64,000 nt of DNA from assembly GCF_045037415.1 (NCBI RefSeq), contig NZ_CP173438.1. One strand, 5' to 3'. The notes beneath the pieces were generated by a model. That model saw only the letters and a list, made by a program, of their open reading frames with translations. It was not told the DNA's origin and did no database searches. This DNA is from Escherichia coli. GTDB lineage: Bacteria > Pseudomonadota > Gammaproteobacteria > Enterobacterales > Enterobacteriaceae. Each line of letters starts with the position of its first letter. Positions within the stretch are counted from its first letter, which is position 1. The position numbers and the translations under genes are program-made. Of this stretch, positions 4,763 through 26,569 are shown piece by piece.

Positions 4763-4783
4763 TGTGCGCGGTTTTCCGCACAG
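4763..4783 (-). promoter_or_regulatory. imperfect palindrome, candidate enhancer (UAS) for the sigma54 activator
   Basis: TGTGCGCGG-TTTT-CCGCACAG about 70 bp upstream of the candidate -24/-12 element in an AT-rich region. Confidence 0.35.
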
Positions 4784-4813
4784 TAAATAAAAGGTGATTC
4801 TCTTACCACACAG

Positions 4814-4839
4814 ATAAAAAAAGGGAGCGATATGCTCCC
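4814..4839 (-). terminator. rho-independent terminator after sucD-like gene
   Basis: Minus-strand hairpin GGGAGC-ATAT-CGCTCCC followed by T7 tract, 20 bp after the stop. Confidence 0.6.
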
Positions 4840-4857
4840 TTGATATTCATTTATGGA

Positions 4858-5730: not shown

Positions 5731-5742
5731 CTTAACCTCCTG

Positions 5743-6912: not shown

Positions 6913-6933
6913 ATATTCCCTCAGTGGTGTGTG

Positions 6934-8352: not shown

Positions 8353-8363
8353 CGGCGCCCTCC

Positions 8364-9518
8364 TTAAAGATCCAGCAACAGTTGTTCCGGTGATTCCAGT
8401 AGCTCACGTATTGCCACCAATGTATGCACGGCTTCCTGACCATCGATAATGCGATGGTCATAGCTGAGAGCAAGGTACATCATGGGACGAATAACAACCT
8501 GACCGTTTTCTGCGACCGGGCGCGGCGTGATGGCATGCATCCCAAGAATGGCCGACTGCGGCGGGTTAATGATTGGCGTTGACATCATCGAACCAAAAGT
8601 ACCGCCGTTGGTGATAGAGAACGTGCCGCCCTGTAACGCCTCCAGCGGCAATTTGCCATTGCGTGCCTGTGTGGCGTATTCGGCAATTTGCCGTTCAATT
8701 TCCACCAAAGAGAGTGATTGCGCATTGCGTAACACAGGCACTACCAGGCCGCGGTTGCTGCTCACTGCAATGCCGATATCGCAATAATCACGCCAGATAA
8801 TCTCGTTGCCATCGACGCTGGCATTCACTACAGGGAAGCGCTCCAGCGCCCGGGTAACGGCCTTAACAAAGAAGGACATAAAGCCCAGCTTCACGCCGTG
8901 CTTCTCGGCAAAACGATCTTTCCAGCGGGCGCGTAAGTCCATCACGCTCTGCATGTTTACTTCGTTGAATGTGGTAAGAATGGCGTTATTTTGTTGGGAA
9001 GCCAGCAGACGCTCAGCAATTCGCTGACGTAAGCGCGACATCGGCTCACGACGTTCCTGACGAGCACCCGGTGTCAAGGGTTTAGCTGGCGCGATCTCCG
9101 CCACCCGTTCAGGCTGAATGGCTGGTGCAGGAGTAACGCGCTGCACATCCTCTTTCAGGATACGTCCATTTCTCCCGCTCCCCGCAACGTCAGCAAGTTC
9201 GACACCACTACGCTGTGCCTCCAGCCGTGCGGAAGGCATCGCCAGGGTTTCGGTGACTGGTGTGACGGTTTCTTCTATGACAGCTTGCGGCTTAAGATGC
9301 GCCAACAGTTGCGCGGACGTGACCGTGCTACCTTCGCTGACGATAATATTGCTTAACACGCCATCGTGCGGGGCCGGTATTTCCAGAATGACTTTATCGG
9401 TTTCCAGCTCGGCAATCACATCATCGCGTTTTACGTGCTCGCCTTCTTGTTTACACCAGGTTGTCAGCGTGCCTTCCGTGACAGATTCCGGTAATACAGG
9501 GACAGTAATTTCGATCAT
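8364..9518 (-). CDS. dihydrolipoyllysine succinyltransferase (E2) paralog (SucB-like)
   Basis: 384 aa; lipoyl domain (ETDKV), catalytic domain with DHRxxDG motif. Confidence 0.85.
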
Positions 9519-9550
9519 AAAATGTTCTCCTTATTATTTTTGTGCGCCTT

Positions 9551-13751: not shown

Positions 13752-14780
13752 TCAGTCGGGAAGTTGGCGAAGAATTTGCTCCACTCGCTCTTGCAGTGGC
13801 CCCGAAACCGAAAGATAAGGAATGTTCCTGCGCGACAATTCCTGTTCATACCACACCTGTTGCCGTGCGCGAAATACCTCTCCTTGCCGGGTGCCATCCT
13901 GCACGAAGGGAAATTCTGCGCCGCAAAGCACTACCAGAGAGTATTCCCGCTCCGCCAGTTGGTGAAGTTCTTGCGGAGCATGACCATATTGATCAAGGGC
14001 ATAGAATAAGGTCGTGAGTGGCGACGTGTCACATATAAGATAGTGATTAGCTTCTGCTTGTTGTTCCCGGCGTACCTGTTCGCAGGCGATATGCAACAAA
14101 TCATCCGCAGTTAAGATACCGTTTTTTTCTTCCCAATAGTCGCGGCCAAATTCAGCGACATACACCGTATCAAGCACGCCCGCCAGCGCTTTTGAAAGCG
14201 TGCTTTTACCGGTAGATTCGCCACCAAGCAGACAGATACGGCGAACGAAACTGTAATAAACATCATTCGCCAACATGTAGCGATAGCGGTGAACATCGGA
14301 ACGAATAAGCGTTCCCGAAGGCGCTTCATCGCCAACTGGGCGCGCCATTCGAACGTGTTCAACGGGTTGGGCAAAACGCCGCGCCAGCACGTTAGCAAAG
14401 CCATCGCCATAGTCTTCTGCAGTAAATACAGCGTGTGGGCGGCAACGTAATATCTGCAAGCATAGCGTCGCCACATAATGACGGTGGATGTCGGCATCAG
14501 CATTGTTATGCGGGATAGCAGGTAAGTTATAACGCGCAACAAGCTCTGGCGTCAGTACCAAAAACGTCGCTTGCGGGAAGCGCACTTGCAGCCACGTCAG
14601 GCGCTTTTCAGGTTCACAGTCAGGCATTTCCGGCACGGAATAACTGATGATGAACAGTTCTTCACATTGCGCCAGTGCGGTATTGATCAACTTTTCATGA
14701 CCACAATGCAAAGGCGCGAATTTACCAACCACCAGACCCGTTGCAAAAGGCTTCATGATGTTTGCAACTCTTTGCGCCAT
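13752..14780 (-). CDS. NadR-like bifunctional NMN adenylyltransferase / ribosylnicotinamide kinase lacking the N-terminal HTH
   Basis: HxGH nucleotidyltransferase motif (HCGH), Walker A GGESTGKST; 342 aa; alternative start MKPF at 14756 abuts the pnuC-like stop. Confidence 0.65.
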   Translation of the reverse strand: MAQRVANIMKPFATGLVVGKFAPLHCGHEKLINTALAQCEELFIISYSVPEMPDCEPEKRLTWLQVRFPQATFLVLTPELVARYNLPAIPHNNADADIHRHYVATLCLQILRCRPHAVFTAEDYGDGFANVLARRFAQPVEHVRMARPVGDEAPSGTLIRSDVHRYRYMLANDVYYSFVRRICLLGGESTGKSTLSKALAGVLDTVYVAEFGRDYWEEKNGILTADDLLHIACEQVRREQQAEANHYLICDTSPLTTLFYALDQYGHAPQELHQLAEREYSLVVLCGAEFPFVQDGTRQGEVFRARQQVWYEQELSRRNIPYLSVSGPLQERVEQILRQLPD

Positions 14781-15310
14781 TGATACAAACCATACCAGGC
14801 GTTAATCCAGAACAGGAAATATAAGCCAGCGGTCAGGTTTAAACCGCGCGTCATATACAGTGGCACCGCCAGGGTATTCACCGCTAACCAGACGTACCAG
14901 TTTTCGATACGTCTTCCCATCAACATGAATTGTGCCAGAACGCTGAAGGTCAAAATCAACGAATCCAGCCAGGGTGCCCAAGCATTGGTAAAGGTGTGGA
15001 GTAAAAAGCCGTAACCGCCTGCCACGACGACAGCACAGAGCAACAAAAGGAAAAAGTGACTGGCTTGCGTTCGGCGCACCGGCAAGATGTCGCCACCCTG
15101 ACCTTTCAGCCAGTGGATCCAGCCAGTGATGCTGGTCACGATGAAGAATAACTGGAGCGTAACGTCGGCATAGAGTTGCACGGACCAAAAAACCCAGCCG
15201 TACAATATGCTGCCAATTATGCCGATCCACCATGTATGCACATTGTTTCTGGCAGCCAGCCAGACGGAAACCGCGTATGCCAGACACGCGGCGATTTCTG
15301 AATAAGACAT
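14753..15310 (-). CDS. PnuC-family nicotinamide riboside transporter-like membrane protein (short form)
   Basis: 185 aa, Trp-rich TM segments typical of PnuC; 22 bp after alr stop. Confidence 0.6.
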   Translation of the reverse strand: MSYSEIAACLAYAVSVWLAARNNVHTWWIGIIGSILYGWVFWSVQLYADVTLQLFFIVTSITGWIHWLKGQGGDILPVRRTQASHFFLLLLCAVVVAGGYGFLLHTFTNAWAPWLDSLILTFSVLAQFMLMGRRIENWYVWLAVNTLAVPLYMTRGLNLTAGLYFLFWINAWYGLYQWRKELQTS

Positions 15311-16464: not shown

Positions 16465-17880
16465 TTATTCGTCGTCGTACTGCGGCCCCGCATAGTTGTC
16501 GAAGCGCGACCATTGACCGTTAAAGGTCAGGCGTACCGTCCCGATTGGGCCGTTACGTTGTTTACCGATAATAATTTCCGCGATGCCTTTTAAATCACTG
16601 TTTTCGTGATACACCTCATCACGATAGATAAACATGATCAAGTCCGCATCCTGCTCGATAGAGCCAGATTCACGCAGGTCGGAGTTGACCGGGCGTTTGT
16701 CGGCACGTTGTTCCAGAGAACGGTTCAACTGGGACAGCGCCACCACCGGCACGTTCAGTTCTTTCGCCAGTGCTTTCAGCGAGCGGGAGATTTCTGCAAT
16801 TTCCAGCGTACGGTTATCGGAAAGCGCCGGTACGCGCATCAGTTGCAGGTAGTCGATCATGATAAGCCCGATGCCGCCGTGTTCACGGGCAATACGGCGT
16901 GCGCGGGAACGCACTTCCGTTGGCGTCAGGCCGGAGGAATCATCGATATAGATATTGCGTTTTTCGAGCAAAATACCCATGGTGCCGGAAATGCGTGCCC
17001 AATCTTCATCATCGAGCTGCCCGGTACGGATTTTAGTCTGGTCAACACGCGACAGCGACGCCAGAGAACGCATCATAATCTGTTCTGATGGCATCTCCAG
17101 CGAGAAGATAAGTACCGGTTTATCCTGCAACATCGCCGCGTTTTCGACGAGGTTCATCGCAAATGTCGTTTTACCCATCGACGGACGCGCGGCAACGATG
17201 ATCAAATCCGACGGCTGCAAGCCAGCGGTTTTTTTGTTGAGATCGTCATAACCGGTGTTTACCCCGGTAACGCCATCGTGTGGCTGCTGAAACAACTGCT
17301 CAATACGCGCCACGGTTGCGTCGAGCACATCGGCGATGTTCTTCGGCCCTTCGTCTTTGTTTGCACGACTTTCGGCAATTTTGAAGACGCGGGATTCAGC
17401 AAGGTCCAGCAGATCTTCACTGGTACGCCCTTGTGGATCAAAACCGGCTTCGGCAATCTCATTCGCAACGGAGATCATCTCACGGACAACGGCACGTTCG
17501 CGCACGATATCCGCATAGGCACTGATGTTCGCCGCACTTGGCGTATTTTTTGACAGCTCTGCCAGATAAGCAAAACCACCGACGCTATCGAGTTGCCCCT
17601 GGCGTTCCAGCGATTCCGCAAGGGTAATCAGATCGATAGGACTACCGCTTTCCTGCAAACGCGCCATTTCAGTAAAGATATGACGGTGTGGGCGGGTGTA
17701 AAAATCGTCTGCCACCACACGCTCGGCTACATCATCCCAGCGTTCGTTATCCAGCATTAAACCGCCCAACACCGACTGCTCCGCTTCGATCGAGTGCGGA
17801 GGCACTTTCAGCCCGGCAACTTGTGGATCGCGTTCGCGGTTATCAGTCTGTTGTTTGTTGAAAGGTCTATTGCCTGCCAT
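16465..17880 (-). CDS. dnaB: replicative DNA helicase
   Basis: 471 aa from MAGNRPFNKQQ...; Walker A ARPSMGKT; ORF-finder extension trimmed. Confidence 0.93.
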   Translation of the reverse strand: MAGNRPFNKQQTDNRERDPQVAGLKVPPHSIEAEQSVLGGLMLDNERWDDVAERVVADDFYTRPHRHIFTEMARLQESGSPIDLITLAESLERQGQLDSVGGFAYLAELSKNTPSAANISAYADIVRERAVVREMISVANEIAEAGFDPQGRTSEDLLDLAESRVFKIAESRANKDEGPKNIADVLDATVARIEQLFQQPHDGVTGVNTGYDDLNKKTAGLQPSDLIIVAARPSMGKTTFAMNLVENAAMLQDKPVLIFSLEMPSEQIMMRSLASLSRVDQTKIRTGQLDDEDWARISGTMGILLEKRNIYIDDSSGLTPTEVRSRARRIAREHGGIGLIMIDYLQLMRVPALSDNRTLEIAEISRSLKALAKELNVPVVALSQLNRSLEQRADKRPVNSDLRESGSIEQDADLIMFIYRDEVYHENSDLKGIAEIIIGKQRNGPIGTVRLTFNGQWSRFDNYAGPQYDDE

Positions 17881-17952
17881 AACGAATGGTGTTACCTGCT
17901 GTTGAATGGGGGACAAGAGAGTATAGCGAGAAACAGTTTCTCGCTACAGCAT

Positions 17953-18987
17953 TTAACGCCCCCGCTTTCCGGTGGAAGCGCGAATTTGCAGGGTCGGGCG
18001 ATAGATGTAATGGCTGAGCGGTGCGTCTGGTTGCGCAATACGCCGTAAAATTTGCTGCGCCGCCTGTTTCCCCAGAGCCAATGGTTCTACCGCAATTGTG
18101 GTTAACGGCGGGTTACTGTAAGCACAAGCCGCCACGCCATCATTACCAATCAACGAAATATCTTCCCCGGCAAATAATCCTCTTTCGCCTAGTGCCGACT
18201 CCGCGCCAAAAGCCATTAAATCGTTATAACAAATCACCGCTGTGGGTGGCGAAGGCATATCCAACAGCTGTTGCATCAACTGGTAGCCGTTGGCCTGAGT
18301 CGGTTCAGCACGCAGCGAAAAAGCATCAGTACTCCACGGCTGTAAACCATGGTGATTCATCGCCTCAAGGTATCCCTGATAACGCATATGGTGCGTAAGA
18401 CCACCAATAAACACGATATCTCTGTGCCCTTGTTGAATGAGATATTCCGTCGCTTCCCGTACACCTGCGTGGCTGTCCACGCCAACGTAATCGACGGGCA
18501 ATTGTTGCCAATCCAGAGGGCGCATCGTGATTAATAAGGGTGTGGAACTGTTGGCATAACGCTGTAAATCGGCTTCTGAGGTACTGTTCACTGGACAGAG
18601 GACAATGCCCGCGACGTGGTGTTCCAGCAAGGTATCAAGCACCTGTTTTTGCCGGTCACTACGCTGGGAGGTATTGGACATCACGGTGATAAAACCGTGC
18701 TCCGCCAGCGTCATCTCAAGACCCATAGTAAATTCAGCGAAGAAAGGATTTATCAAATCGTCAATGACTACGCCGATAGTTAGCGATTTTTGCGAACGCA
18801 GATTGGCAGCAAAACGGTTATAGACATAGCCTAATTGTTCAATGGCTTGCTGGACTTTTTGTTGCGTCTCTTTTTTGATAAGTGAACTGTCGTTGAGAAC
18901 CAGCGATACAGTCGATTTCGAAACGCCAGCCGCACGCGCAACATCGGTTAATGTTACCCGCTTTCTTCCTGTATCCGACTTCGCCAT
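17953..18987 (-). CDS. LacI-family transcriptional regulator
   Basis: N-terminal HTH (VTLTDVARAAGVSKSTVSLVLN) + periplasmic-binding-protein-like domain; start ATG 18987; divergent from the 19243 operon. Confidence 0.8.
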   Translation of the reverse strand: MAKSDTGRKRVTLTDVARAAGVSKSTVSLVLNDSSLIKKETQQKVQQAIEQLGYVYNRFAANLRSQKSLTIGVVIDDLINPFFAEFTMGLEMTLAEHGFITVMSNTSQRSDRQKQVLDTLLEHHVAGIVLCPVNSTSEADLQRYANSSTPLLITMRPLDWQQLPVDYVGVDSHAGVREATEYLIQQGHRDIVFIGGLTHHMRYQGYLEAMNHHGLQPWSTDAFSLRAEPTQANGYQLMQQLLDMPSPPTAVICYNDLMAFGAESALGERGLFAGEDISLIGNDGVAACAYSNPPLTTIAVEPLALGKQAAQQILRRIAQPDAPLSHYIYRPTLQIRASTGKRGR

Positions 18988-19047
18988 GCCTGCTCCAAAC
19001 CCCCATAAGATCAAGGCAATTACTTTATCATAATCTCCTTTTACTCA

Positions 19048-19074
19048 TGCGATCCGTTAACGCAAGGGATCGCA
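19048..19074. promoter_or_regulatory. candidate operator palindrome in regulator/operon intergenic region
   Basis: TGCGATCC-N11-GGATCGCA inverted repeat in the AT-rich divergent promoter region. Confidence 0.3.
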
Positions 19075-19242
19075 GGAGATCGTCGTTTCGATCACAGATT
19101 CGCACTTCCCTTGTTGTGTTTTTTACACCCTAATCGTACAAATTACGCATAAATTAGATCGTTCCAATTAATTTATGAAAATTATCATATTGTTTTAAAT
19201 GTATATTTTTAATTATTTTTATATCGAAACAAGGAAATTATT

Positions 19243-20814
19243 ATGTGCTCTGTACGCACGATCACTGCACCGGAAGCTGCAGATTTGATTGTTGATGGCG
19301 CAGTTGTCACCGTCTCCTCCTCCAGTGGAATGGGGTGTCCGGATGCGGTGCTGGCAGCAATAGGTGAACGCTTTCAACGTGCCGGACATCCGCAAAACAT
19401 CACCTCCATCCACCCTATCGCCGCTGGTGATATGTATGGCGTAAAAGGCATCGATCATCTGGCGCAACCGGGCTTACTGGCAAAAGTGATCGCTGGCTCC
19501 TACCCCTCCGGTCCATCATCAATGACGCCTCCGTTAATCTGGCAAATGATCAATGACAACGCGATCCCCGCCTGGAATCTGCCTTCCGGGATCTTATTTG
19601 ATATGCACCGGGAAGCGGCGGCTCATCGTCCTGGCGTGCTGACACAAACAGGCATGGATACCTATGTGGATCCCCTGTTGCAGGGCGGTGCAATGAATGA
19701 AAAAGCGGCGCAACAATCTCTGGTTGAACGTGTTCGATTTGCTAACGACGACTGGCTGTTTTTCCCCAGTATCGTGCCGCAGGTGGCGATCATTCGCGCT
19801 ACCACTGCCGATGAACGCGGCAACCTGACTTATGAACATGAAGGGGCTTATCTGGGGCCACTGGAACAGGCTACTGCCGTTCGCAATAATGGTGGCATCA
19901 TAATTGCGCAAGTAAAACGACAGGTTGCCGCCGGAAGTCTGAAACCAAAAGAGGTGCGTATTCCGGGTGTACTGGTGGATTACATCGTGATTGCGCCGGA
20001 ACAAACACAAACGACACAAACGCAATATGAACCTGCCATTTCCGGCGAAATCAGTCGTCCGCTGTCAGCCTTTCGTTATATGGAACATGGCCCGGCGCGA
20101 GTTATTGCCCAGCGAGTCGCGCAAGAACTACAAAGTGGAGATGCGGTAAATATTGGCTTTGGTATTTCTGCCAACGTACCACGCATTTTACTGGAACAAG
20201 GTCGCCACGGTGACGTCACCTGGCTGCTGGAACAGGGCGCGATTGGCGGAGTTCCACTGCTGGAATTTCAGTTCGGTTGTGCCTCTAATGCAGAAGCATT
20301 TTTGCCCTCTCCCCAGCAGTTCACCTATTTCCAGGGTGGTGGTTTTGATCTCACTCTGATGTCGTTTTTACAAATCGGCGCAGATGGCTCAGTGAACGTC
20401 TCACATCTCCCCGCTCGTCCACATGTCACTGCCGGATGCGGTGGATTTATTGATATCACCTCACATGCGAAACGCATTATTTTCTCTGGCTTTTTCAATG
20501 CCGGTGCCCAACTGCAACTGGAAGAGGGTCAGCTGCGTATCATTAAAGAAGGCAAAGCCAAAAAACTGGTACAGGACGTCGCCCACGTGACGTTCTCCGG
20601 CAAACGCGCAATAAGACTCGGGCAACAAGTACAGTACATTACTGAACGCTGCGTTCTGGAATTAACCCCAGACGGGCTACTGGTCACAGAAATTGCCCCA
20701 GGTATTGATCCTGAACGCGACATTCTCGCCCAAAGCGATGCCCCACTCCGTCTGGCAGACGATCTCAAACTAATGAATCCCCTCTATTTTCAACAAGGAA
20801 GTCACCATGAATAA
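19243..20814 (+). CDS. family I CoA-transferase (acyl-CoA:acetate / propionate CoA-transferase-like, fused alpha-beta)
   Basis: 523 aa; AAGGAA RBS; resembles YdiF/Pct-type transferases. Confidence 0.65.
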   Translation: MCSVRTITAPEAADLIVDGAVVTVSSSSGMGCPDAVLAAIGERFQRAGHPQNITSIHPIAAGDMYGVKGIDHLAQPGLLAKVIAGSYPSGPSSMTPPLIWQMINDNAIPAWNLPSGILFDMHREAAAHRPGVLTQTGMDTYVDPLLQGGAMNEKAAQQSLVERVRFANDDWLFFPSIVPQVAIIRATTADERGNLTYEHEGAYLGPLEQATAVRNNGGIIIAQVKRQVAAGSLKPKEVRIPGVLVDYIVIAPEQTQTTQTQYEPAISGEISRPLSAFRYMEHGPARVIAQRVAQELQSGDAVNIGFGISANVPRILLEQGRHGDVTWLLEQGAIGGVPLLEFQFGCASNAEAFLPSPQQFTYFQGGGFDLTLMSFLQIGADGSVNVSHLPARPHVTAGCGGFIDITSHAKRIIFSGFFNAGAQLQLEEGQLRIIKEGKAKKLVQDVAHVTFSGKRAIRLGQQVQYITERCVLELTPDGLLVTEIAPGIDPERDILAQSDAPLRLADDLKLMNPLYFQQGSHHE

Positions 20815-21586
20815 CGGCACCATTGACCTCCAGCGCAACGGTTTCATTGCCACTTTGGTGATTAATCGCCCGGCGAAACTCAACGCATTAACCCCAGAGA
20901 TGCTCGAACAACTGCTGGCGCATTGCCACACGTTGGAAACTGATTCGGAGATCCGCGTAGTACTGCTGACCAGTGCCAGTGAAAAAGCGTTTTGTGTCGG
21001 CGCGGATATTCATCGCTGGACCTCTCTTTCTGCACTCGATATGTGGCGCAACTGGATCCGCCGCGGTCATCAGGCATTTGATGCTCTGGCACAACTGCCA
21101 CAGCCCGTAATCGCCCTGTTGCACGGCCTGGCTTATGGCGGTGGTCTGGAACTGGCTGCTACCGCCGATATCCGTATTTGTAGCGCCGAAGCACAAATGG
21201 CACTACCAGAAACCGGGCTGGCGACAGTGCCTGGCTGGTCAGGAACGCAGCGGCTGACGGCACTGCTTGGGCGCTCACTGGTGAAAGAACTGGTATTTAC
21301 CGGTGAACCACTGGATGCACAGCGGGCACTGTCCTGCGGGCTGGTGAATCGCGTTGTCGCCAGGGAGGCGTTACACGACGCCGGACTGCAACTGGCACAA
21401 CGTATCGCCCAGCGTGCTCCCGTTGCAGTGCAGATCGCCAAGCAGGTTATTGATGCCGGAGAAGGTATTGCTGTGGCCTCGACGCTTGAAGCACTGGCTG
21501 GCGCTTTTTCCGCCACGACTGAAGATGCTCATGAAGGCAGTCAGGCATTTACTGAGAAGCGTCAACCGCACTTTCAGGCACGCTGA
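20807..21586 (+). CDS. enoyl-CoA hydratase/isomerase (crotonase) family protein
   Basis: 259 aa; crotonase oxyanion-hole regions (FCVGADI, GGGLELA); 8-bp overlap with upstream gene. Confidence 0.8.
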   Translation: MNNGTIDLQRNGFIATLVINRPAKLNALTPEMLEQLLAHCHTLETDSEIRVVLLTSASEKAFCVGADIHRWTSLSALDMWRNWIRRGHQAFDALAQLPQPVIALLHGLAYGGGLELAATADIRICSAEAQMALPETGLATVPGWSGTQRLTALLGRSLVKELVFTGEPLDAQRALSCGLVNRVVAREALHDAGLQLAQRIAQRAPVAVQIAKQVIDAGEGIAVASTLEALAGAFSATTEDAHEGSQAFTEKRQPHFQAR

Positions 21587-21612
21587 TCGCCTCTTACAAG
21601 GAAAGAAAGATA

Positions 21613-22893
21613 ATGAATATGACAACCTCTGTTCCCCAAACGCCTTCTTTATTTCGGCGAATAATGACAAAACTCGCGGCCTTTGCACCTGGCATCTTTC
21701 TTATTGGCTACAGCATCGGAACAGGCAGCATCACCACTATGGCTAAAGCAGGTGCTAACTATGGTGTCTCGCTCATGTGGGCCGTGGCGCTTTCTTGCAT
21801 TGTTACCTGGTTTTTAATCCGTATTTATGGTCGTTATGCTTCCGTCACTGGTGAACGCGCGTTGACTGCATTTCGTCGCCATATCCATCCCGGCGTTGCG
21901 ATGTTGTTTCTGATCGGGTTAACCGTTGCCGTGAGCGGTTCCATTATGGGGGTAATGGGTATTCTGGCGGATGTAATGGCAACATGGTCCACGACCTGGT
22001 TTAGTGGCGGTATCTCAGCTCTCGCCTGGGCTATCGCGATGGTCATTATGATTAACGTGATGCTCTGGACCAACAGCAACGCCGGGTTCGACAAAATCCT
22101 CTCCGCGCTGGTTGGCATTATGGGGCTGGCGTTTGTGATTAATTTTTTCATTATGATGCCGCCGGTCGCAGATCTGCTGGCCGGATTTATTCCGTCTGTT
22201 CCCGATCCTGTCGCTGGCGATAACAGTACGCCATTTCTGATAATTTCTGGCATGGTGGGTACCACCGTAGCACCAGCAATGTTTCTTATGCGCACGACCC
22301 TGGTAAAAAGTAATGGTTGGGGTGTGGACAATTTGCCTCATCAAAATCGTGATGCCATTGTCAGTGCAGGAATGATGTTCATCATCAGTGCGGCGGTGAT
22401 GGCTGCGGCTGCGGGTACGTTGTACCAAACTGGCACAGGTTTAAATAATGCCTCGCAAATGGTCATTATTCTCGAACCTATTGCTGGCTCAGCTGCCGTG
22501 GGGCTCTTTGTTATTGGTATTGTTGCAGCCGGGCTTTCCAGCCAGTTCCCAAATTTGCTGTTAACGCCCTGGCTGCTGGCTGACTGGCGTGATACCAGCA
22601 ACGAAGTTAGCCCAGGTTACCGTATCCTGATGACGGTTATGTCTCTGCTTTGTCTGGTTGTGCCGCTGTTCCACGCACGCCCGGTATTGGTGATGATTGC
22701 CAGCCAGGCCTTTAACGCCATTATTCTGCCGCTGACTGTTTTATGTATGTTCTGGCTGGCGAACAAGCCTTCGTTAATGGGCAAATATCGTTGCTCACGC
22801 TGGGAAAACGTCATGTTTATTGCCATAAGCGTATTTACGCTAATCATGGGCTATATGGCAATGAGCGGCTTAATCGAAAGTCTGATGAAATAG
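21613..22893 (+). CDS. NRAMP-fold transporter homolog lacking canonical metal-binding motifs
   Basis: 426 aa polytopic; TM1 region aligns to NRAMP GPGxL...DPGN...QAGA but reads APGIFL...GTGS...AKAGA. Confidence 0.55.
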   Translation: MNMTTSVPQTPSLFRRIMTKLAAFAPGIFLIGYSIGTGSITTMAKAGANYGVSLMWAVALSCIVTWFLIRIYGRYASVTGERALTAFRRHIHPGVAMLFLIGLTVAVSGSIMGVMGILADVMATWSTTWFSGGISALAWAIAMVIMINVMLWTNSNAGFDKILSALVGIMGLAFVINFFIMMPPVADLLAGFIPSVPDPVAGDNSTPFLIISGMVGTTVAPAMFLMRTTLVKSNGWGVDNLPHQNRDAIVSAGMMFIISAAVMAAAAGTLYQTGTGLNNASQMVIILEPIAGSAAVGLFVIGIVAAGLSSQFPNLLLTPWLLADWRDTSNEVSPGYRILMTVMSLLCLVVPLFHARPVLVMIASQAFNAIILPLTVLCMFWLANKPSLMGKYRCSRWENVMFIAISVFTLIMGYMAMSGLIESLMK

Positions 22894-22903
22894 GTGGGAC
22901 GCA

Positions 22904-24940
22904 ATGATTGACGAAACGCTAACGGCGCTCACTGATATCAAAATGCCCCATTACGCACCGCTGGCTCAAGCCAGCGGTAGTATCGACCTTAACGGTACCA
23001 TTTTACCAGAGTACTGCTGCAACACGCTGGTTCTGGGCAGTGGCGCGGCAGGATGGCGAGCTGCCGTCGAGCTGAAACGGCAAAATGTCGATGTAATGGT
23101 CGCCTCCAGCAAAGCCTTCTGGGGCACTTCCGCCTGTTCTGGTTCCGATAAACAAACGCTTCACACCGCGAATACGCGTGCAAATGGTGACCATTTTCTG
23201 ACATTAAGTAACACCCTGGCGGCAGGTGGTGCGATGGATCATGACACCGCATATGTTGAGGCGGTCGGATCGGTGAACACCTGTGAAGTACTGAAATATC
23301 TGGGTCTGGATCTGCCTGAAGATCTCTTTGGCGCAACGTTGCGTTATCAAACCGATCACGATGAATTTGGCCGTGCCACTAGCTGCGGTCCTCGAACATC
23401 GCGCCTGATGGTGAAGGTGCTGGCCCAGGAGGCAATGCGCCTTAATATTCCTCTTTGCGATCACACAACGGCGATTCATATCCTGACCAGTGGTGAAGGG
23501 GAAAATCGACGAGTCGTGGGGGTGATCGCCATCGATAAAGCCTGTCGGGATAATCCCTGGCGAATGGTCGTGATTCGCTGCCAGCATCTGGTTTTAGCCA
23601 CGGGCGGACCAGGTGAACTTTATCGTGACAGTGTTTATCCGGTGAACTGTTTTAGTGCGTTGGGCATGGCACTGGAAGCAGGTATAACTCTGGTTAATCT
23701 TACGGAAAGTCAGTTTGGTATCGGTACACCGCGCAGCCAGTTTCCGTGGAATCTTTCCGGTACTTACATGCAGGCGATGCCGCGCATCTATTCGCAGGAC
23801 CACTCCGGGCGTCAGTATAATTTTCTGGCAGCTTATTACCCCACGACTCGTATGCTGGCCTCCGCAATATTTCGTAAAGGTTACCAGTGGCCGTTTCACG
23901 CGGAACGAATGCTGGAATATGGCTCCAGCCTGCTGGATGTCGCAGTTTATGAAGAGACTCAAAAAGGGCGCGATGTTTTTCTTGATTTTCTACGGGAACC
24001 AGAACCCGCAGCGGACGGAACGTCATTCAACCTGCAAGAACTGGATGATGATGTCATCGACTATCTGCAACAAAATCACGCCCTGTTGGCACAACCGCTG
24101 GCGAGATTAACACAGATGAATCCTCTGGCTATTCGTTTGTATCAGATGCACGGTCATGATCTCACAGCCTCACCGCTCAAGTTTACGCTAAATAATCAAC
24201 ATCTTAATGGCGGAATTGAAGTTGATATTTGGGGACGTACATCGCTAACTGGTTGTTATGCTGCCGGAGAAAATGCCGGAACACATGGTGTCACGCGCCC
24301 AGGTGGAGCAGCGCTCAATGCCGGGCAAGTTTTCGCCCGCCGCTGTGCATTACATATTGCTCATCAGAAAAGCCAGGACCGGCCTCTCGAGAGGCAACAA
24401 ATTCTCAGTACGATTAATGAGGCGCAACAGTACCTGAATCAGGGGCTGCTACGTGACGACGTGCGAGAAACGATACAAAATACCATGAGCCACCATGCCG
24501 CAATTTTGTGTCATACACAGGGGATCAACACTGCCGCGCAAACCCTGGCAACACTTTGTGAAGATATTCGCCGGGAAGGTATTCAATGCGATGAAAACAG
24601 CCTGGCACAATCTTTCCAGTGGCGGCAAAGTGCGCAACTGGCGCTGGCTGTACTGCGTTCTTTACAATGTTATGTCGAAAACGGTGGTGGGAGTCGTGGT
24701 GCCAGGGCTATCTATGATGGCGAAGCCGGTATTGCACCGCAAACACCAGGTGGGCCACTCCTGGCCTGGCGTTTTCGGCCAGAAAATCAGGATGCCAGGC
24801 AATATATGATTTGTGTTTGTCGGGAAGCTAATGATTACCAAACCTGGACTCGCCCGTGCCGTGAACGGGGCGTATTAACGCTAACCAACTTTGAGCGCCA
24901 GTGGCAAAACTGGATTGCGGCGACGCCGTTTCAATACTGA
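22904..24940 (+). CDS. FAD-dependent oxidoreductase, fumarate reductase/succinate dehydrogenase flavoprotein superfamily
   Basis: 678 aa; N-terminal GSGAAG dinucleotide-binding motif; C-terminal GRTSLTGCYAAGENAG FAD-binding signature. Confidence 0.65.
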   Translation: MIDETLTALTDIKMPHYAPLAQASGSIDLNGTILPEYCCNTLVLGSGAAGWRAAVELKRQNVDVMVASSKAFWGTSACSGSDKQTLHTANTRANGDHFLTLSNTLAAGGAMDHDTAYVEAVGSVNTCEVLKYLGLDLPEDLFGATLRYQTDHDEFGRATSCGPRTSRLMVKVLAQEAMRLNIPLCDHTTAIHILTSGEGENRRVVGVIAIDKACRDNPWRMVVIRCQHLVLATGGPGELYRDSVYPVNCFSALGMALEAGITLVNLTESQFGIGTPRSQFPWNLSGTYMQAMPRIYSQDHSGRQYNFLAAYYPTTRMLASAIFRKGYQWPFHAERMLEYGSSLLDVAVYEETQKGRDVFLDFLREPEPAADGTSFNLQELDDDVIDYLQQNHALLAQPLARLTQMNPLAIRLYQMHGHDLTASPLKFTLNNQHLNGGIEVDIWGRTSLTGCYAAGENAGTHGVTRPGGAALNAGQVFARRCALHIAHQKSQDRPLERQQILSTINEAQQYLNQGLLRDDVRETIQNTMSHHAAILCHTQGINTAAQTLATLCEDIRREGIQCDENSLAQSFQWRQSAQLALAVLRSLQCYVENGGGSRGARAIYDGEAGIAPQTPGGPLLAWRFRPENQDARQYMICVCREANDYQTWTRPCRERGVLTLTNFERQWQNWIAATPFQY

Positions 24941-25045
24941 TCAGAGATATTCCGGGTTGTGACCGCAGCCCGGAAAAAATCCCCGCGCGGCCTGGCGACT
25001 ACTGTTAGGCTTAAAACAGATATGTCGCTCAGTAAAGGAGTTTAA

Positions 25046-26029
25046 ATGGCAACGCGCATCGAATTTCACAAGCACGGTGGCCCGGAAGTACTTCAGGCCG
25101 TGGAGTTCACTCCTGCCGATCCGGCGGAGAATGAAATCCAGGTCAAAAATAAAGCCATCGGCATCAATTTTATCGACACGTATATCCGCAGCGGCCTTTA
25201 CCCGCCACCATCGCTACCCAGCGGATTAGGCACCGAAGCGGCAGGCATCGTGAGTAAAGTCGGCAGTGGTGTAAAGCATATTAAGGCAGGCGATCGCGTA
25301 GTCTATGCACAATCGGCATTAGGCGCTTACAGCTCTATGCATAACATTAATGCGGATAAAGCGGCGATTCTGCCTGCGGCAATTTCTTTTGAGCAAGCTG
25401 CGGCATCCTTCCTGAAAGGCTTAACGGTTTATTATCTGCTGCGCAAAACCTATGAAATTAAACCCGATGAACAGTTCCTGTTCCACGCAGCGGCTGGCGG
25501 CGTTGGCTTGATTGCCTGCCAGTGGGCAAAAGCCCTGGGCGCGAAACTTATCGGCACCGTGGGAACCGCGCAAAAAGCGCAGAGTGCGCTAAAAGCGGGC
25601 GCATGGCAGGTTATTAACTATCGTGAAGAGAATCTGGTCGAGCGGTTAAAAGAGATCACCGGTGGCAAGAAAGTGCGCGTGGTGTACGATTCAGTGGGCA
25701 GAGACACCTGGGAACGGTCGCTGGATTGCCTGCAACGCCGCGGCTTAATGGTGAGTTTTGGCAACTCATCAGGTGCGGTTACCGGTGTGAACTTAGGCAT
25801 TCTCAATCAGAAAGGCTCGTTGTATGTGACACGCCCTTCCCTGCAAGGCTATATCACCACGCGGGAGGAATTAACCGAGGCCAGTAATGAACTGTTCTCT
25901 TTGATTGCCAGCGGTGTGATTAAGGTCGATGTCGCCGAGCAGCAGAAATATCCGCTGAAGGATGCGCGGCGTGCGCATGAGATTCTGGAAAGCCGGGCGA
26001 CGCAGGGTTCCAGCCTGTTGATTCCATAA
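25046..26029 (+). CDS. qor: NADPH:quinone oxidoreductase
   Basis: 327 aa, MDR family, Qor-like. Confidence 0.9.
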   Translation: MATRIEFHKHGGPEVLQAVEFTPADPAENEIQVKNKAIGINFIDTYIRSGLYPPPSLPSGLGTEAAGIVSKVGSGVKHIKAGDRVVYAQSALGAYSSMHNINADKAAILPAAISFEQAAASFLKGLTVYYLLRKTYEIKPDEQFLFHAAAGGVGLIACQWAKALGAKLIGTVGTAQKAQSALKAGAWQVINYREENLVERLKEITGGKKVRVVYDSVGRDTWERSLDCLQRRGLMVSFGNSSGAVTGVNLGILNQKGSLYVTRPSLQGYITTREELTEASNELFSLIASGVIKVDVAEQQKYPLKDARRAHEILESRATQGSSLLIP

Positions 26030-26037
26030 AAGAAATT

Positions 26038-26066
26038 GGGCTTCCACCTGGGAAGCCCTTTCTTTT
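26038..26066 (+). terminator. rho-independent terminator after qor
   Basis: GGGCTTCC-ACCT-GGGAAGCCC hairpin followed by T-rich tract. Confidence 0.6.
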
Positions 26067-26193
26067 ATAGTTCGGCTGTATGTAGGGTACAGCTCGATGA
26101 ATTTGTTTGACACGCAATAGTGACAGATTTGATTATCAATTCCTATTTTGTTCTAAGGATAAAACCTTAGGTTGTGATCATCCGCACAATCCC

Positions 26194-26436
26194 TTAGTAA
26201 CGCCAGCGGTCATAATGCTGATATTTCGGCACTTTTGGTGCTTTAATCGCCCTGATCACCCACACCACCGCAACCGCCAACAGCAGCCACGGCAGCAACT
26301 TAATCATCAATGCCAGCATACCGCCGAGGAACATAAAGGCCGTCGCCACAATCAGCGCGGCGATAATACCCAGCAACGAAACACCAGTGACCATCAGCAT
26401 GACAAAAAAGCCAATTACAAAAAGTAGTTCCAGCAT
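26194..26436 (-). CDS. pspG: phage shock protein G
   Basis: 80-aa hydrophobic protein MLELLFVIGFF...; ORF-finder extension trimmed. Confidence 0.85.
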   Translation of the reverse strand: MLELLFVIGFFVMLMVTGVSLLGIIAALIVATAFMFLGGMLALMIKLLPWLLLAVAVVWVIRAIKAPKVPKYQHYDRWRY

Positions 26437-26470
26437 GATGCTCTCCCAAATATGAAATCTCTTGCTGGCA

Positions 26471-26488
26471 TTACAAGAATCATGCCAA
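26471..26488 (-). promoter_or_regulatory. candidate sigma54 promoter of pspG
   Basis: Minus-strand TGGCATGATTCTTGTAA ~35 bp upstream of pspG start. Confidence 0.45.
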
Positions 26489-26569
26489 AAATAATCTATT
26501 GATTTAACAGCAAAACGCCCCGCGACGGTGCGCAGGGCGTGGTGAATTTGACTACTTTTTGGTGAAAAG

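What the first reader, a model, noticed from the sequence alone, without database searches (positions are those of the whole stretch)
17953..24940. Accessory LacI-regulated four-gene operon inserted between dnaB and qor: CoA-transferase, crotonase, NRAMP-fold transporter and fumarate-reductase-like flavoprotein
In K-12 dnaB and qor are separated only by a short divergent promoter region (recalled). Here about 7.2 kb sits between them: a LacI-family repressor gene divergently transcribed from a tightly packed operon (8-bp overlap between the first two genes). The operon encodes a family-I CoA-transferase (YdiF/Pct-like), an enoyl-CoA hydratase, a transporter and an FAD flavoprotein of the fumarate reductase superfamily. 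The enzyme logic (CoA activation by transfer, hydration or dehydration of an enoyl-CoA, and a flavin-dependent C=C reduction or oxidation) resembles carnitine/crotonobetaine (Cai), acrylate-to-3-hydroxypropionate and enoate-reductase pathways, but the gene set does not match any pathway I can name. I regard it as the strongest candidate in this window for an uncharacterised substrate-specific catabolic or respiratory module, possibly for a hydroxy-acid or alpha,beta-unsaturated acid.
Basis: partly seen in the sequence, partly recalled or inferred. Interest (0 to 1): 0.8.

Follow-up and report, generated by a model that had tools for sequence, protein, structure and literature searches.

The report
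Uncharacterised LacI-controlled acid-catabolism operon in ExPEC
Between dnaB and qor, about 15% of E. coli genomes (ST131, Nissle 1917, APEC O1 and others) carry an intact, repressor-controlled four-gene operon that probably imports a sugar-acid-like carboxylic acid and breaks it down through CoA thioesters and a flavoenzyme family that nobody has characterised.

Summary
A 7.1-kb segment (window about 17913-25045) replaces the 82-bp K-12 qorA-dnaB spacer. It encodes a LacI-family regulator, transcribed divergently from four genes: a YdiF-type CoA-transferase, a crotonase, an Nramp-fold carrier and a 678-aa flavoprotein of the fumarate-reductase superfamily. It is accessory, present in 826 of 5426 complete E. 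coli genomes. No paper or curated family assigns it a substrate.

New findings:
- The "Nramp" protein lacks the metal-binding motifs. Its relatives sit in hexuronate and alginate loci. In 280 genomes an MHS carboxylate symporter occupies the same slot.
- The flavoprotein belongs to a widespread uncharacterised family. Its genes neighbour sugar and sugar-acid catabolic genes, and repeatedly CoA-transferase plus crotonase.
- A palindrome, TTGGAACGTTCCAA (window 19154-19167), recurs in front of these genes from E. coli to Rhizobiales, which defines a conserved regulon.
- The same genome type holds a second, paralogous cluster between ytfB and rplI.

Best reading: a repressor-controlled catabolic operon for a hydroxylated, hexuronate- or aldonate-like carboxylate, with chemistry on the C-alpha/C-beta bond next to the carboxyl group. 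The substrate and the flavoenzyme reaction remain unproven. A respiratory role is less likely.

The parts
17913..25045 (.). Accessory segment that replaces the K-12 qorA-dnaB spacer
   Evidence: Similarity to the K-12 spacer ends about 32 nt upstream of the dnaB ATG. There is no similarity upstream of the qor ATG. There are no flanking repeats and no integrase, IS element or tRNA. GC is 0.512, against 0.512 and 0.516 in the flanks.
17922..17948 (-). 12-bp-stem hairpin just after the regulator's stop codon (terminator-like, weak T tail), separating it from dnaB
   Evidence: Consensus scan. Sequence seen.
17953..18987 (-). LacI-family transcriptional regulator (344 aa; an alternative TTG start lies at 19014)
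   Evidence: NCBIfam MalI, RbsR, CytR and PurR models score 185-216 bits, all below their cut-offs. The recognition-helix sequence AGVSKSTVSLVL is shared with the regulators of alpha-proteobacterial loci of the same family.
19154..19167 (.). Candidate operator, TTAGATCGTTCCAA (consensus TTGGAACGTTCCAA). It lies 76 bp upstream of the CoA-transferase ATG and 167 bp upstream of the regulator ATG.
   Evidence: Conserved in the orthologous loci L007 and L008. It is the only site in the window. There are 16 sites in 12 of 80 independent loci, against 0.09 expected, always in front of CoA-transferase, flavoprotein, LacI, GMC or GFO genes.
19243..20814 (+). Family I, single-chain CoA-transferase of the YdiF/Pct type (523 aa)
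   Evidence: PDB 2ahu (YdiF), E 3e-100. The catalytic Glu333 of YdiF aligns with E330. NCBIfam FadX 331 bits, below its cut-off.
20807..21586 (+). Crotonase-type enoyl-CoA hydratase/dehydratase (259 aa), overlapping the upstream gene by 8 bp
   Evidence: NCBIfam short-chain enoyl-CoA hydratase 218 bits. The best solved relative is 5zai, 3-hydroxypropionyl-CoA dehydratase, E 3e-55. Both catalytic glutamates are present: GGGLE115 and PE135T, 20 residues apart.
21613..22893 (+). Nramp-fold carrier without a metal site (426 aa; PGAP start 21664). Predicted importer of the organic acid.
   Evidence: Pfam Nramp 2e-56. The MntH model scores 84 bits against a cut-off of 430. DPGN is replaced by GTGS and MPH by APA. 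GTGS is invariant in the subfamily. Homologues neighbour UxuA, UxuB, UxaC and alginate-lyase/KDG-kinase/Eda genes.
21575..22939 (+). Exchangeable transporter cassette: the last 4 codons of the crotonase gene, the carrier gene and the first 12 codons of the flavoprotein gene
   Evidence: The Nramp and MHS variants are 99.7% and 99.0% identical on the two sides and unalignable in between. The Nramp version is in 546 genomes and the MHS version in 280.
22904..24940 (+). 678-aa cytoplasmic flavoprotein of the succinate-dehydrogenase/fumarate-reductase/L-aspartate-oxidase superfamily, from an uncharacterised subfamily
   Evidence: Pfam FAD_binding_2. AF2 model with pTM 0.85. The best solved folds are SdhA and FrdA at 15-18% identity. 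The profile alignment keeps the FrdA H355/R390-type pair (H433, R465), while the covalent-FAD His and FrdA H232 are replaced. There are 338 relatives in 100,044 species genomes.

Best explanation
This is a LacI-type-repressed catabolic operon for an imported, hydroxylated carboxylic acid, most probably a sugar acid of the hexuronate or aldonate kind.

Proposed mechanism:
1. In the absence of inducer, the regulator binds the palindrome at 19154-19167 and shuts off the divergent promoters.
2. The Nramp-fold carrier, or the MHS symporter in the alternative allele, takes up the acid.
3. The YdiF-type transferase moves CoA from acetyl-CoA, or from the product thioester, onto the carboxyl group.
4. 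The crotonase removes or adds water across the C-alpha/C-beta bond of the thioester.
5. The FrdA/NadB-like flavoprotein carries out a two-electron oxidation or reduction at the same C-alpha/C-beta position, probably on the free acid, since it keeps one carboxylate clamp.
6. The product, possibly a 2-keto-3-deoxy or 4-deoxy-5-keto acid, enters existing routes such as KduID, KdgK and Eda.

Shown by computation: the gene content, the intact catalytic residues, the conserved operator, the loss of the metal site, the sugar-acid neighbourhoods and the accessory distribution.

Inferred: the substrate class, the order of steps, the direction of the flavin reaction and the fate of the product.
For: Regulation:
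- The palindrome is conserved in three orthologous loci.
- It is enriched about 180-fold in independent loci of the same flavoprotein family, always upstream of CoA-transferase, flavoprotein, LacI, GMC or GFO genes.
- The regulators share the recognition-helix sequence.

Carboxylate substrate:
- A CoA-transferase needs a free carboxyl group, and its catalytic Glu is kept.
- The alternative carrier is an MHS metabolite:H+ symporter (353 bits; nearest named model ShiA).

Sugar-acid class:
- Nramp-like homologues at 50-64% identity lie beside UxuA, UxuB, UxaC, alginate lyase, KdgF-like cupin, KDG kinase and Eda genes in 4 of 5 loci examined, and beside SusC/SusD and a mannose-6-phosphate-isomerase-like cupin in the fifth.
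- MHS homologues lie beside GFO, FAH-family, OprB-porin and Edd-Eda genes.
- In the 84 flavoprotein loci analysed, GFO_IDH_MocA occurs in 42, LacI in 36, GMC in 36, SDR in 26, AP_endonuc_2 in 24 and KDG kinase in 14, usually directly downstream.
- The TRAP binding proteins of two such loci are closest to EFI structures that I recall as glucuronate/galacturonate and mannuronate/taluronate complexes.

Functional coupling of the three enzymes:
- CoA-transferase plus crotonase accompany the flavoprotein in at least five separate clades.

Catalytic competence:
- Crotonase E115/E135, transferase E330, flavoprotein H433/R465.

Catabolic rather than respiratory:
- The flavoprotein has no signal peptide and no partner subunit in the operon, and its relatives occur in aerobes.
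Against: - No experiment bears on any step.
- The nearest characterised relatives of the transferase (YdiF, FadX, Pct) and of the crotonase (3-hydroxypropionyl-CoA dehydratase, short-chain hydratases) act on short unbranched C3-C5 acids, not on polyhydroxy acids.
- No sugar-acid pathway that combines a CoA-transferase, a crotonase and an FRD-type flavoenzyme is known. I cannot write a complete, precedent-backed reaction sequence that needs all three.
- The ligand identities of the TRAP structures come from memory. The tool output truncates them.
- Neighbourhood evidence comes from homologues at 50-64% identity, whose substrates may differ.
- The flavoprotein's active-site mapping rests on profile alignment and on a model that is poorly confident (pLDDT below 50) in the conserved loops 75-123 and 149-160.
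Confidence: 0.5

Rival explanations
1. Short-chain C3-C5 acid pathway. Examples are 3-hydroxypropionate/acrylate/propionate or 3-hydroxybutyrate/crotonate. CoA transfer would be followed by crotonase-catalysed interconversion of the 3-hydroxyacyl-CoA and the enoyl-CoA, with the flavoprotein acting as an acrylate- or crotonate-type enoate reductase or dehydrogenase.
For: - The transferase is closest to YdiF (E 3e-100), and sources name it propionate CoA-transferase.
- The crotonase's best solved relative is 3-hydroxypropionyl-CoA dehydratase.
- Alpha-proteobacterial loci of the family carry GMC oxidoreductases and an aldehyde dehydrogenase. I recall that these families perform 3-hydroxypropionate -> malonate semialdehyde -> acetyl-CoA in Halomonas (DddA, DddC).
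- One locus (L030) adds an AcrC-like acyl-CoA dehydrogenase with EtfAB.
Against: - LacI-family regulators characteristically sense sugars, sugar acids or nucleosides (PMC4052901).
- The carriers and their relatives sit in sugar-acid loci.
- KDG kinase, Eda, levoglucosan-dehydrogenase-like GFO, AP_endonuc_2 and sugar-type ABC systems dominate the family's neighbourhoods.
Confidence: 0.2
2. Cai-like reductive electron-sink module, the first reader's 'respiratory' option. A hydroxy acid is converted through its CoA ester to an enoate. The flavoprotein reduces the enoate, the saturated acid is exported (possibly by antiport), and the CoA is recycled by the transferase.
For: - The set of three enzymes plus one carrier forms a closed cycle that needs nothing else.
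- From established knowledge, all characterised non-fumarate members of this flavoprotein superfamily that reduce substrates act on free alpha,beta-unsaturated carboxylates.
- One carboxylate clamp is retained.
- More distant relatives (27-36% identity) occur in strict anaerobes.
Against: - There is no electron-input module. The protein has no FMN_bind, OYE, cytochrome or Fe-S partner and no signal peptide.
- Close relatives are common in aerobic Rhizobiales and Rhodobacterales, directly upstream of KDG kinase and near Eda.
- The transferase is family I, not the CaiB type, and there is no BCCT antiporter.
Confidence: 0.15
3. Hydroaromatic carboxylate pathway for shikimate-, quinate- or cyclohexene-carboxylate-like substrates. 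CoA activation and crotonase chemistry act on the ring, and the flavoprotein saturates or desaturates the C1=C2 bond next to the carboxylate.
For: - The MHS allele's nearest named model is the shikimate transporter ShiA (268 bits).
- GFO_IDH_MocA and AP_endonuc_2 families include cyclitol dehydrogenases and dehydroshikimate or inosose dehydratases (established knowledge), and they accompany the flavoprotein.
- An acyl-CoA dehydrogenase in L030 also resembles cyclohexane-1-carbonyl-CoA dehydrogenase (303 bits).
Against: - The ShiA score is far below the cut-off of 538.
- The Nramp-type allele's relatives, the TRAP binding proteins, KDG kinase and Eda point to open-chain or pyranose sugar acids.
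- No aromatic-ring or shikimate-pathway gene is linked.
Confidence: 0.07
4. The annotation taken at face value: a divalent-metal (Mn/Fe) Nramp importer fortuitously embedded among unrelated or decaying metabolic genes.
For: RefSeq names the protein 'Nramp family divalent metal transporter'. Pfam Nramp matches over the full length.
Against: - The metal-coordinating Asp/Asn of TM1 and Met of TM6 are replaced (GTGS, APA), and invariantly so across the subfamily.
- The slot is interchangeable with a carboxylate symporter.
- All five genes are intact and more than 99% conserved in 738 genomes.
- The gene order is conserved at 67-92% protein identity in other genomic settings.
Confidence: 0.03

Closest known systems
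E. coli carnitine (cai) operon: CaiT, CaiB, CaiD, CaiA
   Same: One carrier, a CoA-transferase that recycles CoA between substrate and product, a crotonase-family dehydratase and a flavin enzyme acting on the resulting C=C bond. All are in one regulated operon and act on the C-alpha/C-beta bond next to a carboxyl group.
   Different: - The transferase here is family I (YdiF type), not family III (CaiB).
- The flavoenzyme has an FrdA/NadB fold, not an acyl-CoA dehydrogenase fold.
- The carrier has an Nramp or MHS fold, not BCCT.
- The regulator is LacI type, not CaiF/CRP/FNR.
- No fix-type electron-transfer genes are linked.
E. coli YdiF (acetate/short-chain acyl CoA-transferase, PDB 2ahu) and the ydiFO-ydiQRST-fadK locus
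   Same: Single-chain family I transferase, E 3e-100, with the catalytic Glu aligned.
   Different: It is a paralogue, not an orthologue. It sits in a different locus, with a crotonase and an FrdA-like flavoprotein instead of an acyl-CoA dehydrogenase with ETF. Its acid specificity is unknown.
Fumarate reductase / succinate dehydrogenase flavoprotein (FrdA, SdhA) and L-aspartate oxidase (NadB)
   Same: The same four-domain fold, the FAD_binding_2 domain and a retained His/Arg carboxylate clamp equivalent to FrdA H355/R390.
   Different: - Only 15-20% identity, with a divergent capping domain (residues 272-408 unmatched).
- The covalent-FAD His is replaced by Ala, and FrdA H232 by Gly.
- No Fe-S subunit and no membrane anchor.
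- It is about 90-140 residues longer than FrdA or NadB.
- It belongs to a separate family with no characterised member.
Nramp/MntH divalent-metal transporters and the Nramp-related Mg2+ transporter NRMT (PDB 7qia)
   Same: LeuT-type Nramp fold, with a full-length Pfam match. Like NRMT, it has Ala in place of the TM6 Met.
   Different: It also lacks the TM1 Asp, which even NRMT keeps (GTGS against DPGN and NDAGG). The subfamily is embedded in sugar-acid catabolic loci rather than metal-homeostasis loci.
Acyl-CoA route of 2-deoxy-D-ribonate catabolism in Klebsiella michiganensis (PMC6365646)
   Same: A precedent for degrading a sugar acid as a CoA thioester, with MFS carriers and a CoA-transferase in the cluster.
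   Different: That cluster uses a CoA-synthetase, a 3-hydroxyacyl-CoA dehydrogenase, a thiolase and glycerate kinase. It has no crotonase and no FrdA-like flavoprotein.
Classical hexuronate pathways (UxaC-UxuB/UxaB-UxuA/UxaA-KdgK-Eda; KduI-KduD)
   Same: The likely substrate class and the likely end-point, a 2-keto-3-deoxy acid. KDG kinase and Eda are linked to the flavoprotein in other bacteria.
   Different: None of the classical enzymes is encoded in the operon, and CoA thioesters play no part in the classical routes.

Membership tests
Family I CoA-transferase (YdiF/Pct subgroup) | Single polypeptide with fused alpha and beta domains, about 520 aa, homologous over its full length to YdiF | tested here: met
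   523 aa. Residues 5-516 align to 2ahu residues 14-517, E 3e-100.
Family I CoA-transferase (YdiF/Pct subgroup) | Catalytic glutamate that forms the enzyme-CoA thioester (YdiF Glu333) | tested here: met
   E330 in LLEQGAIGG aligns with E333 in TVETGPIGG.
Family I CoA-transferase (YdiF/Pct subgroup) | CoA-transfer activity, and the identity of the acid acceptor | not testable with these tools
   Needs an enzyme assay.
Crotonase-type enoyl-CoA hydratase | Two catalytic glutamates about 20 residues apart (rat ECH E144/E164) | tested here: met
   GGGLE115 and PE135T. Rat ECH 1dub matches at E 4e-41. The residue mapping was done by motif, not by structural superposition.
Nramp divalent-metal transporter (MntH) | Nramp fold | tested here: met
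   PF01566, 2.3e-56, model positions 1-356 of 357.
Nramp divalent-metal transporter (MntH) | Metal-coordinating TM1 DPGN (Asp, Asn) and TM6 A-x-x-M-P-H (Met) | tested here: not met
   GTGS replaces DPGN and APA replaces MPH in the alignment to solved Nramps. GTGS is invariant in 14 subfamily members. The MntH model scores 84 bits against a cut-off of 430.
Quinol:fumarate reductase / succinate dehydrogenase | FAD_binding_2 domain and SdhA/FrdA fold | tested here: met
Quinol:fumarate reductase / succinate dehydrogenase | Covalent 8-alpha-histidyl FAD (the His in R-S-H-T) | tested here: not met
   The profile alignment places Ala (T-S-A-C) at that position.
Quinol:fumarate reductase / succinate dehydrogenase | Two carboxylate-binding sites (FrdA H232/T244 and H355/R390) | tested here: inconclusive
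   H433 and R465 align with H355 and R390, while H232 is replaced by G272. The capping domain is not alignable by sequence. The proposal that R335 is the proton-shuttle Arg is only a motif guess.
Quinol:fumarate reductase / succinate dehydrogenase | Adjacent Fe-S subunit and membrane anchor | tested here: not met
   No such genes lie in or next to the operon.
LacI/GalR repressor with palindromic operator | N-terminal HTH plus a periplasmic-binding-protein-like effector domain | tested here: met
   Full-length matches to the MalI, RbsR, CytR and PurR models. Pfam LacI and Peripla_BP domains on the orthologues.
LacI/GalR repressor with palindromic operator | 14-16-bp palindrome with a central CG in the regulated promoter region, conserved across orthologous loci | tested here: met
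   TTGGAACGTTCCAA. Binding and the effector are not testable here.
Carnitine (Cai) pathway | CaiB family III transferase, CaiA acyl-CoA dehydrogenase and CaiT BCCT antiporter | tested here: not met
   The transferase is family I, the flavoprotein has an FrdA fold and the carrier is Nramp or MHS. Only the crotonase has a counterpart: the CaiD model scores 148 bits against a cut-off of 500.
Mobile genomic island | Integrase or transposase, tRNA target, flanking direct repeats, deviant composition | tested here: not met
   None were found. GC is 0.512, against 0.512 and 0.516 in the flanks, and there are no shared flank repeats of 8 nt or more.

The most novel reading that the evidence does not exclude
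The operon, its ytfB-rplI paralogue and hundreds of related loci encode an undescribed, CoA-thioester-dependent way of degrading hexuronate-type sugar acids, for example mannuronate, guluronate, iduronate or related acids that the classical UxaC route cannot take. An uncharacterised FrdA/NadB-like flavoenzyme family would perform the key C4-C5 (alpha,beta) redox step. A metal-site-less branch of the Nramp family would work as a sugar-acid carrier.
Probability: 0.3. Interest if true: 0.8.

Novelty: new variant of a known kind. Interest (0 to 1): 0.6.

Why it matters
The operon is carried by the major extraintestinal pathogenic lineages (ST131-type strains, APEC O1) and by the probiotic Nissle 1917, but not by K-12. 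It is therefore a candidate niche-specific nutrient pathway in the gut or urinary tract, alongside the neighbouring alpha-ketoglutarate island.

If the inference holds, it would do four things:
- Assign a first function to a flavoprotein family with hundreds of members across Proteobacteria, Lentisphaerae and anaerobes.
- Reveal a CoA-dependent branch of sugar-acid metabolism.
- Show that the Nramp fold has been recruited for an organic substrate, correcting a widespread 'divalent metal transporter' annotation.
- Provide a ready-made regulator-operator pair for a new inducer.

The conserved operator, the two-allele transporter slot and the paralogous cluster make the question directly testable in tractable strains.

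Tried and rejected
**Literature**
None gave a substrate.
- One 2026 genome paper (PMC12928451) lists five ORFs between qorA and dnaB in ExPEC that are absent from the AIEC strains it compared, and does not characterise them in the main text.
- The deoxyribonate acyl-CoA cluster of Klebsiella (PMC6365646) has a different gene set.
- The LacI-regulon survey (PMC4052901) does not mention CoA enzymes.

**Databases**
- NCBIfam gives no equivalog above its cut-off for any of the five proteins.
- Names from all sources are generic.
- AFDB50 neighbours are all unnamed.
- There is no Rfam match in 17000-26500.

**Mobile-element origin**
- Rejected. There are no repeats, integrase or IS element, and no compositional shift.

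**Promoter and terminator scans**
- Hit counts were no higher than in shuffled sequence, and no sigma-70-like match lies upstream of the operon on the + strand.
- The hairpin at 24955-24985 has an A-run, not a T-run, so read-through into qor cannot be excluded.
- I found no convincing CRP site by eye.

**TRAP ligand identities**
- I tried to read them from PDB titles by modelling the binding protein and running Foldseek, but the titles are truncated before the ligand name.
- Vetting et al. 2015 is not held in the library.

**Reaction schemes**
- I tried several explicit schemes: CoA-assisted 4,5-dehydration of uronates to 4-deoxy-5-keto-uronate, C2 oxidation of 3-deoxy-aldonates to KDG, enol-ether formation for ether cleavage, and a 1,5-anhydro-sugar route.
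- None requires all three enzymes with precedent, so none is asserted.

Full report
**1.

The ORF list and the RefSeq annotation of a strain identical over the region (SK1144) agree on the gene layout:

| Gene | Window coordinates | Strand |
|---|---|---|
| dnaB | 16465-17880 | - |
| LacI-family gene | 17953-18987 | - |
| CoA-transferase | 19243-20814 | + |
| crotonase (overlaps the previous gene by 8 bp) | 20807-21586 | + |
| Nramp-fold gene | 21613/21664-22893 | + |
| 678-aa flavoprotein | 22904-24940 | + |
| qorA | 25046-26029 | + |

In K-12 the qorA and dnaB start codons are 82 bp apart. In the window, similarity to that spacer stops about 32 nt upstream of dnaB, and nothing upstream of the qor ATG is shared. 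About 7.1 kb has therefore replaced about 50 bp, including the K-12 qor upstream region. The segment has no integrase, IS element, tRNA or flanking repeat, and its GC content (0.512) equals that of its surroundings.

**2. Distribution**

Megablast finds the segment in 826 of 5426 complete E. coli genomes. All but one of the 828 matches are chromosomal, and 738 genomes are at least 99% identical.

It comes in two forms that differ only in the transporter slot:
- an Nramp-fold gene in 546 genomes, including O25b:H4-ST131;
- an MHS-family MFS gene in 280 genomes, including Nissle 1917 and APEC O1.

The exchanged cassette is window 21575-22939. It covers the last four crotonase codons, the carrier gene and the first twelve flavoprotein codons. 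Its flanks are 99.7% and 99.0% identical between the two forms.

The whole five-gene unit also occurs outside E. coli, in other chromosomal settings and with either carrier (L007 with MFS, L008 with Nramp). There the carriers are the most conserved proteins (91-92% identity), compared with 80-87% for the regulator, transferase and crotonase and 67-78% for the flavoprotein. The two-allele slot is therefore old.

**3. The enzymes look catalytically competent**

- *Transferase.* It aligns end to end with the E. coli YdiF structure (E 3e-100), and YdiF's catalytic Glu333 corresponds to E330.
- *Crotonase.* It carries both hydratase glutamates, E115 and E135. Its best solved relatives are short-chain hydratases, headed by 3-hydroxypropionyl-CoA dehydratase.
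- *Flavoprotein.* It has a FAD_binding_2 domain. An AlphaFold model (pTM 0.85; poorly confident in the conserved loops 75-123 and 149-160) matches SdhA and FrdA best among solved structures, at only 15-18% identity.
  - A profile alignment keeps the His/Arg pair that clamps one substrate carboxylate in FrdA (H433, R465).
  - The covalent-FAD histidine is replaced by Ala, and FrdA His232 by Gly.
  - The capping domain (residues 272-408) does not align to any solved protein.
  - There is no signal peptide, and no Fe-S, cytochrome or anchor gene nearby.
  - It is therefore not a fumarate reductase. It probably still acts alpha,beta to a single carboxylate (inference).

**4. The "Nramp family divalent metal transporter" is almost certainly misnamed**

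The protein matches Pfam Nramp over the full length, but the MntH model scores only 84 bits against a cut-off of 430. In alignments to solved Nramps, the TM1 metal ligands DPGN are GTGS and the TM6 MPH is APA. Even the Mg2+-transporting NRMT keeps the Asp. GTGS is invariant in 14 members of the subfamily.

Homologues at 50-64% identity lie beside the following genes:
- mannonate dehydratase UxuA (L011);
- UxuA, UxuB, UxaC and a GntR regulator (L012);
- UxuA, a 2-epimerase and UxuB (L093);
- an alginate lyase, a KdgF-like cupin, an SDR, Eda and KDG kinase (L094);
- SusC/SusD plus a mannose-6-phosphate-isomerase-like cupin (L010).

The alternative allele is a metabolite:H+ symporter (353 bits; nearest named model ShiA at 268 bits). 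Its relatives lie beside GFO, FAH-family hydrolase, 2-hydroxyacid dehydrogenase and OprB porin genes, and beside Edd-Eda. Both carriers point to an organic, sugar-acid-like anion.

**5. The flavoprotein marks a large uncharacterised family of catabolic loci**

A scan of one genome per species found 338 relatives. Every AlphaFold-database neighbour is unnamed.

I called and clustered the ORFs in 84 loci. The recurrent neighbours are:

| Neighbour family | Loci (of 84) | Note |
|---|---|---|
| GFO_IDH_MocA dehydrogenase | 42 | the alpha-proteobacterial one tested matches the levoglucosan-dehydrogenase model over its full length, 298 bits |
| LacI regulator | 36 | |
| GMC oxidoreductase | 36 | often in tandem |
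| SDR | 26 | |
| AP_endonuc_2 TIM barrel | 24 | |
| TetR regulator | 21 | |
| crotonase | 18 | |
| YdiF-type transferase | 17 | |
| DgoT/ExuT-type MFS | 15 | |
| KDG kinase | 14 | usually immediately after the flavoprotein gene |

Eda, an aldehyde dehydrogenase, sugar-type ABC importers and TRAP systems also recur.

On a tree of the flavoproteins, the transferase/crotonase pair appears in at least five separate clades. The coupling of the three enzymes is therefore not an E. coli accident. The E. coli-type operon is the minimal version.

**6. A conserved regulon**

The intergenic region holds a palindrome, TTAGATCGTTCCAA (19154-19167). It is perfect in L007 (TTGGAACGTTCCAA) and conserved in L008. 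It is the only such site in the 64-kb window.

The degenerate pattern occurs 16 times in 12 of the 80 independently fetched loci, against 0.09 expected. These sites lie upstream of a transferase, flavoprotein, LacI, GMC or GFO gene, with two exceptions that have no called gene start within 400 nt.

The regulators of those loci are 34-42% identical to the E. coli one and share its recognition-helix sequence AGVSKSTVSLVL. LacI proteins of loci without the site differ there.

This is comparative evidence that the regulator controls the operon, and probably itself, and that the E. coli operon belongs to the same regulon as the alpha-proteobacterial sugar-type loci. Binding and the effector remain untested.

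**7. A paralogous cluster in the same genome type**

SK1144 also carries a second cluster between ytfB and rplI. A divergently transcribed TetR regulator gene is followed by SDR, AP_endonuc_2, crotonase, CoA-transferase, flavoprotein and TRAP-QMP genes.
- At least 1448 E. coli genomes have the whole cluster. The K-12-sized genomes sampled retain only the TetR/ytfB end of the query, and I recall that K-12 itself carries only a ytfA pseudogene remnant there.
- The paralogues are 53% (flavoprotein), 39% (transferase) and 37% (crotonase) identical, and the flavoprotein motifs are identical.
- Its TRAP binding protein is closest to the EFI structures 4ovr, 4x8r, 4n8y and 4n15 (E 1e-66 to 1e-71, 36-40% identity).
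- The TRAP binding protein of the beta-proteobacterial locus L030 is closest to 4nx1/4ovp (E 4e-84).
- From memory of the PDB titles, the first group are D-glucuronate/D-galacturonate complexes and the second are taluronate/mannuronate complexes. The tool output cuts the titles before the ligand name. I could only confirm from a review that that structural-genomics study assigned glucuronate/galacturonate to TRAP binding proteins (PMC5812351).

**8. Interpretation**

All three enzyme families work on the C-alpha/C-beta bond next to a carboxyl or thioester group. The transferase needs a free carboxylate. Both carriers, the regulator family, the shared regulon, the TRAP and ExuT-like carriers of sister loci, and the KDG kinase and Eda linkage all point to sugar acids.

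I therefore propose a LacI-repressed operon that imports a hexuronate- or aldonate-like acid, activates it by CoA transfer, dehydrates or hydrates it as the thioester, and oxidises or reduces the same position with the flavoenzyme. The product would feed a 2-keto-3-deoxy or 4-deoxy-5-keto acid into existing routes.

This is inference. I could not write a precedent-backed sequence that needs all three enzymes. The nearest characterised relatives of the transferase and crotonase act on C3-C5 acids, which keeps a short-chain hydroxy or enoic acid pathway alive as the main rival. A Cai-like reductive sink is possible but lacks an electron-input partner, and it fits the aerobic, KDG-kinase-linked relatives poorly.

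**9. Literature and novelty**

Ten full-text searches found no functional study. One 2026 comparative-genomics paper lists the five ORFs as present in ExPEC and absent from the AIEC strains it compared, and leaves them uncharacterised in the main text (PMC12928451). The components belong to known families and the existence of the genes is already annotated, so this is not categorically new. However, the combination matches no known pathway, the flavoprotein family has no characterised member, and a metal-site-less Nramp carrier in an organic-acid operon would be a new use of that fold. I rate it a new variant of a known kind, with interest 0.6.

Noticed in passing
window 1-12295: A sensor kinase and a sigma-54 regulator are followed on the minus strand by an Ldh-family oxidoreductase, a DASS symporter, sucD, sucC, lpdA, odhB and a 2-oxoglutarate dehydrogenase E1 gene. 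This is a second 'suc' cluster between aphA and tyrB. I recall it as the KguS/KguR alpha-ketoglutarate utilisation island of UPEC, and PMC12928451 describes it as GR32. lpdA is annotated as frameshifted in SK1144 but is an intact 472-aa ORF in the window (6934-8352).
   Followed up: partly
window 13752-15310 (-): An AAA-family ATPase gene and a PnuC nicotinamide-riboside transporter gene lie between tyrB and alr. They are absent in strain PM06121 (L002), where alr follows tyrB after a 252-bp gap. This is a second small accessory insertion in the same neighbourhood.
   Followed up: no
L099 9574-19357 (SK1144 4379573-4389356, between ytfB and rplI); also L054, L096: A paralogous nine-gene cluster: a divergent TetR gene, then SDR, AP_endonuc_2, crotonase, CoA-transferase, flavoprotein and TRAP-QMP genes, in the same genome type as the window. 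It is complete in at least 1448 E. coli genomes and shorter in many others. The O157:H7 strain sampled has an IS609 (tnpA/TnpB) element at the site. Its function is also unknown.
   Followed up: partly
hit H44, strain BRG214: One genome has an IS5-family transposase interrupting the Nramp-like gene. This is a natural knockout that could be used for phenotype comparison.
   Followed up: no
window 24955-24985: A hairpin (CCGGG-N12-CCCGG) is followed by an A-run rather than a T-run between the flavoprotein stop codon and qor. The K-12 qor upstream region is entirely replaced, so qor may be read through from the operon or may use a new promoter.
   Followed up: no
L030 1-12082 (Betaproteobacteria bacterium MS502-56): The richest variant of the family: CoA-transferase, crotonase, TRAP-PQM, a MaoC-like hydratase, an AcrC-like acyl-CoA dehydrogenase, EtfB, EtfA, AP_endonuc_2 and the flavoprotein. 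It suggests further CoA-level redox steps in some lineages.
   Followed up: partly
L034, L039, L042, L047, L055, L058, L066 and other loci (Rhodobacterales): A recurrent order: sugar-type ABC importer, two tandem GMC oxidoreductases, a roughly 104-aa protein that I read by eye as a Dabb (stress-responsive alpha/beta-barrel) domain protein, LacI, a levoglucosan-dehydrogenase-like GFO, the flavoprotein, KDG kinase and sometimes Eda. It looks like a complete but undescribed pathway from a neutral sugar-like compound to KDPG.
   Followed up: partly
AFDB50 hits: More distant relatives of the flavoprotein (27-36% identity, same length) occur in strict anaerobes and in an Asgard archaeon (Enterocloster bolteae, Halanaerobium, Treponema, Coriobacterium, Promethearchaeum). 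The family is much broader than Proteobacteria.
   Followed up: no
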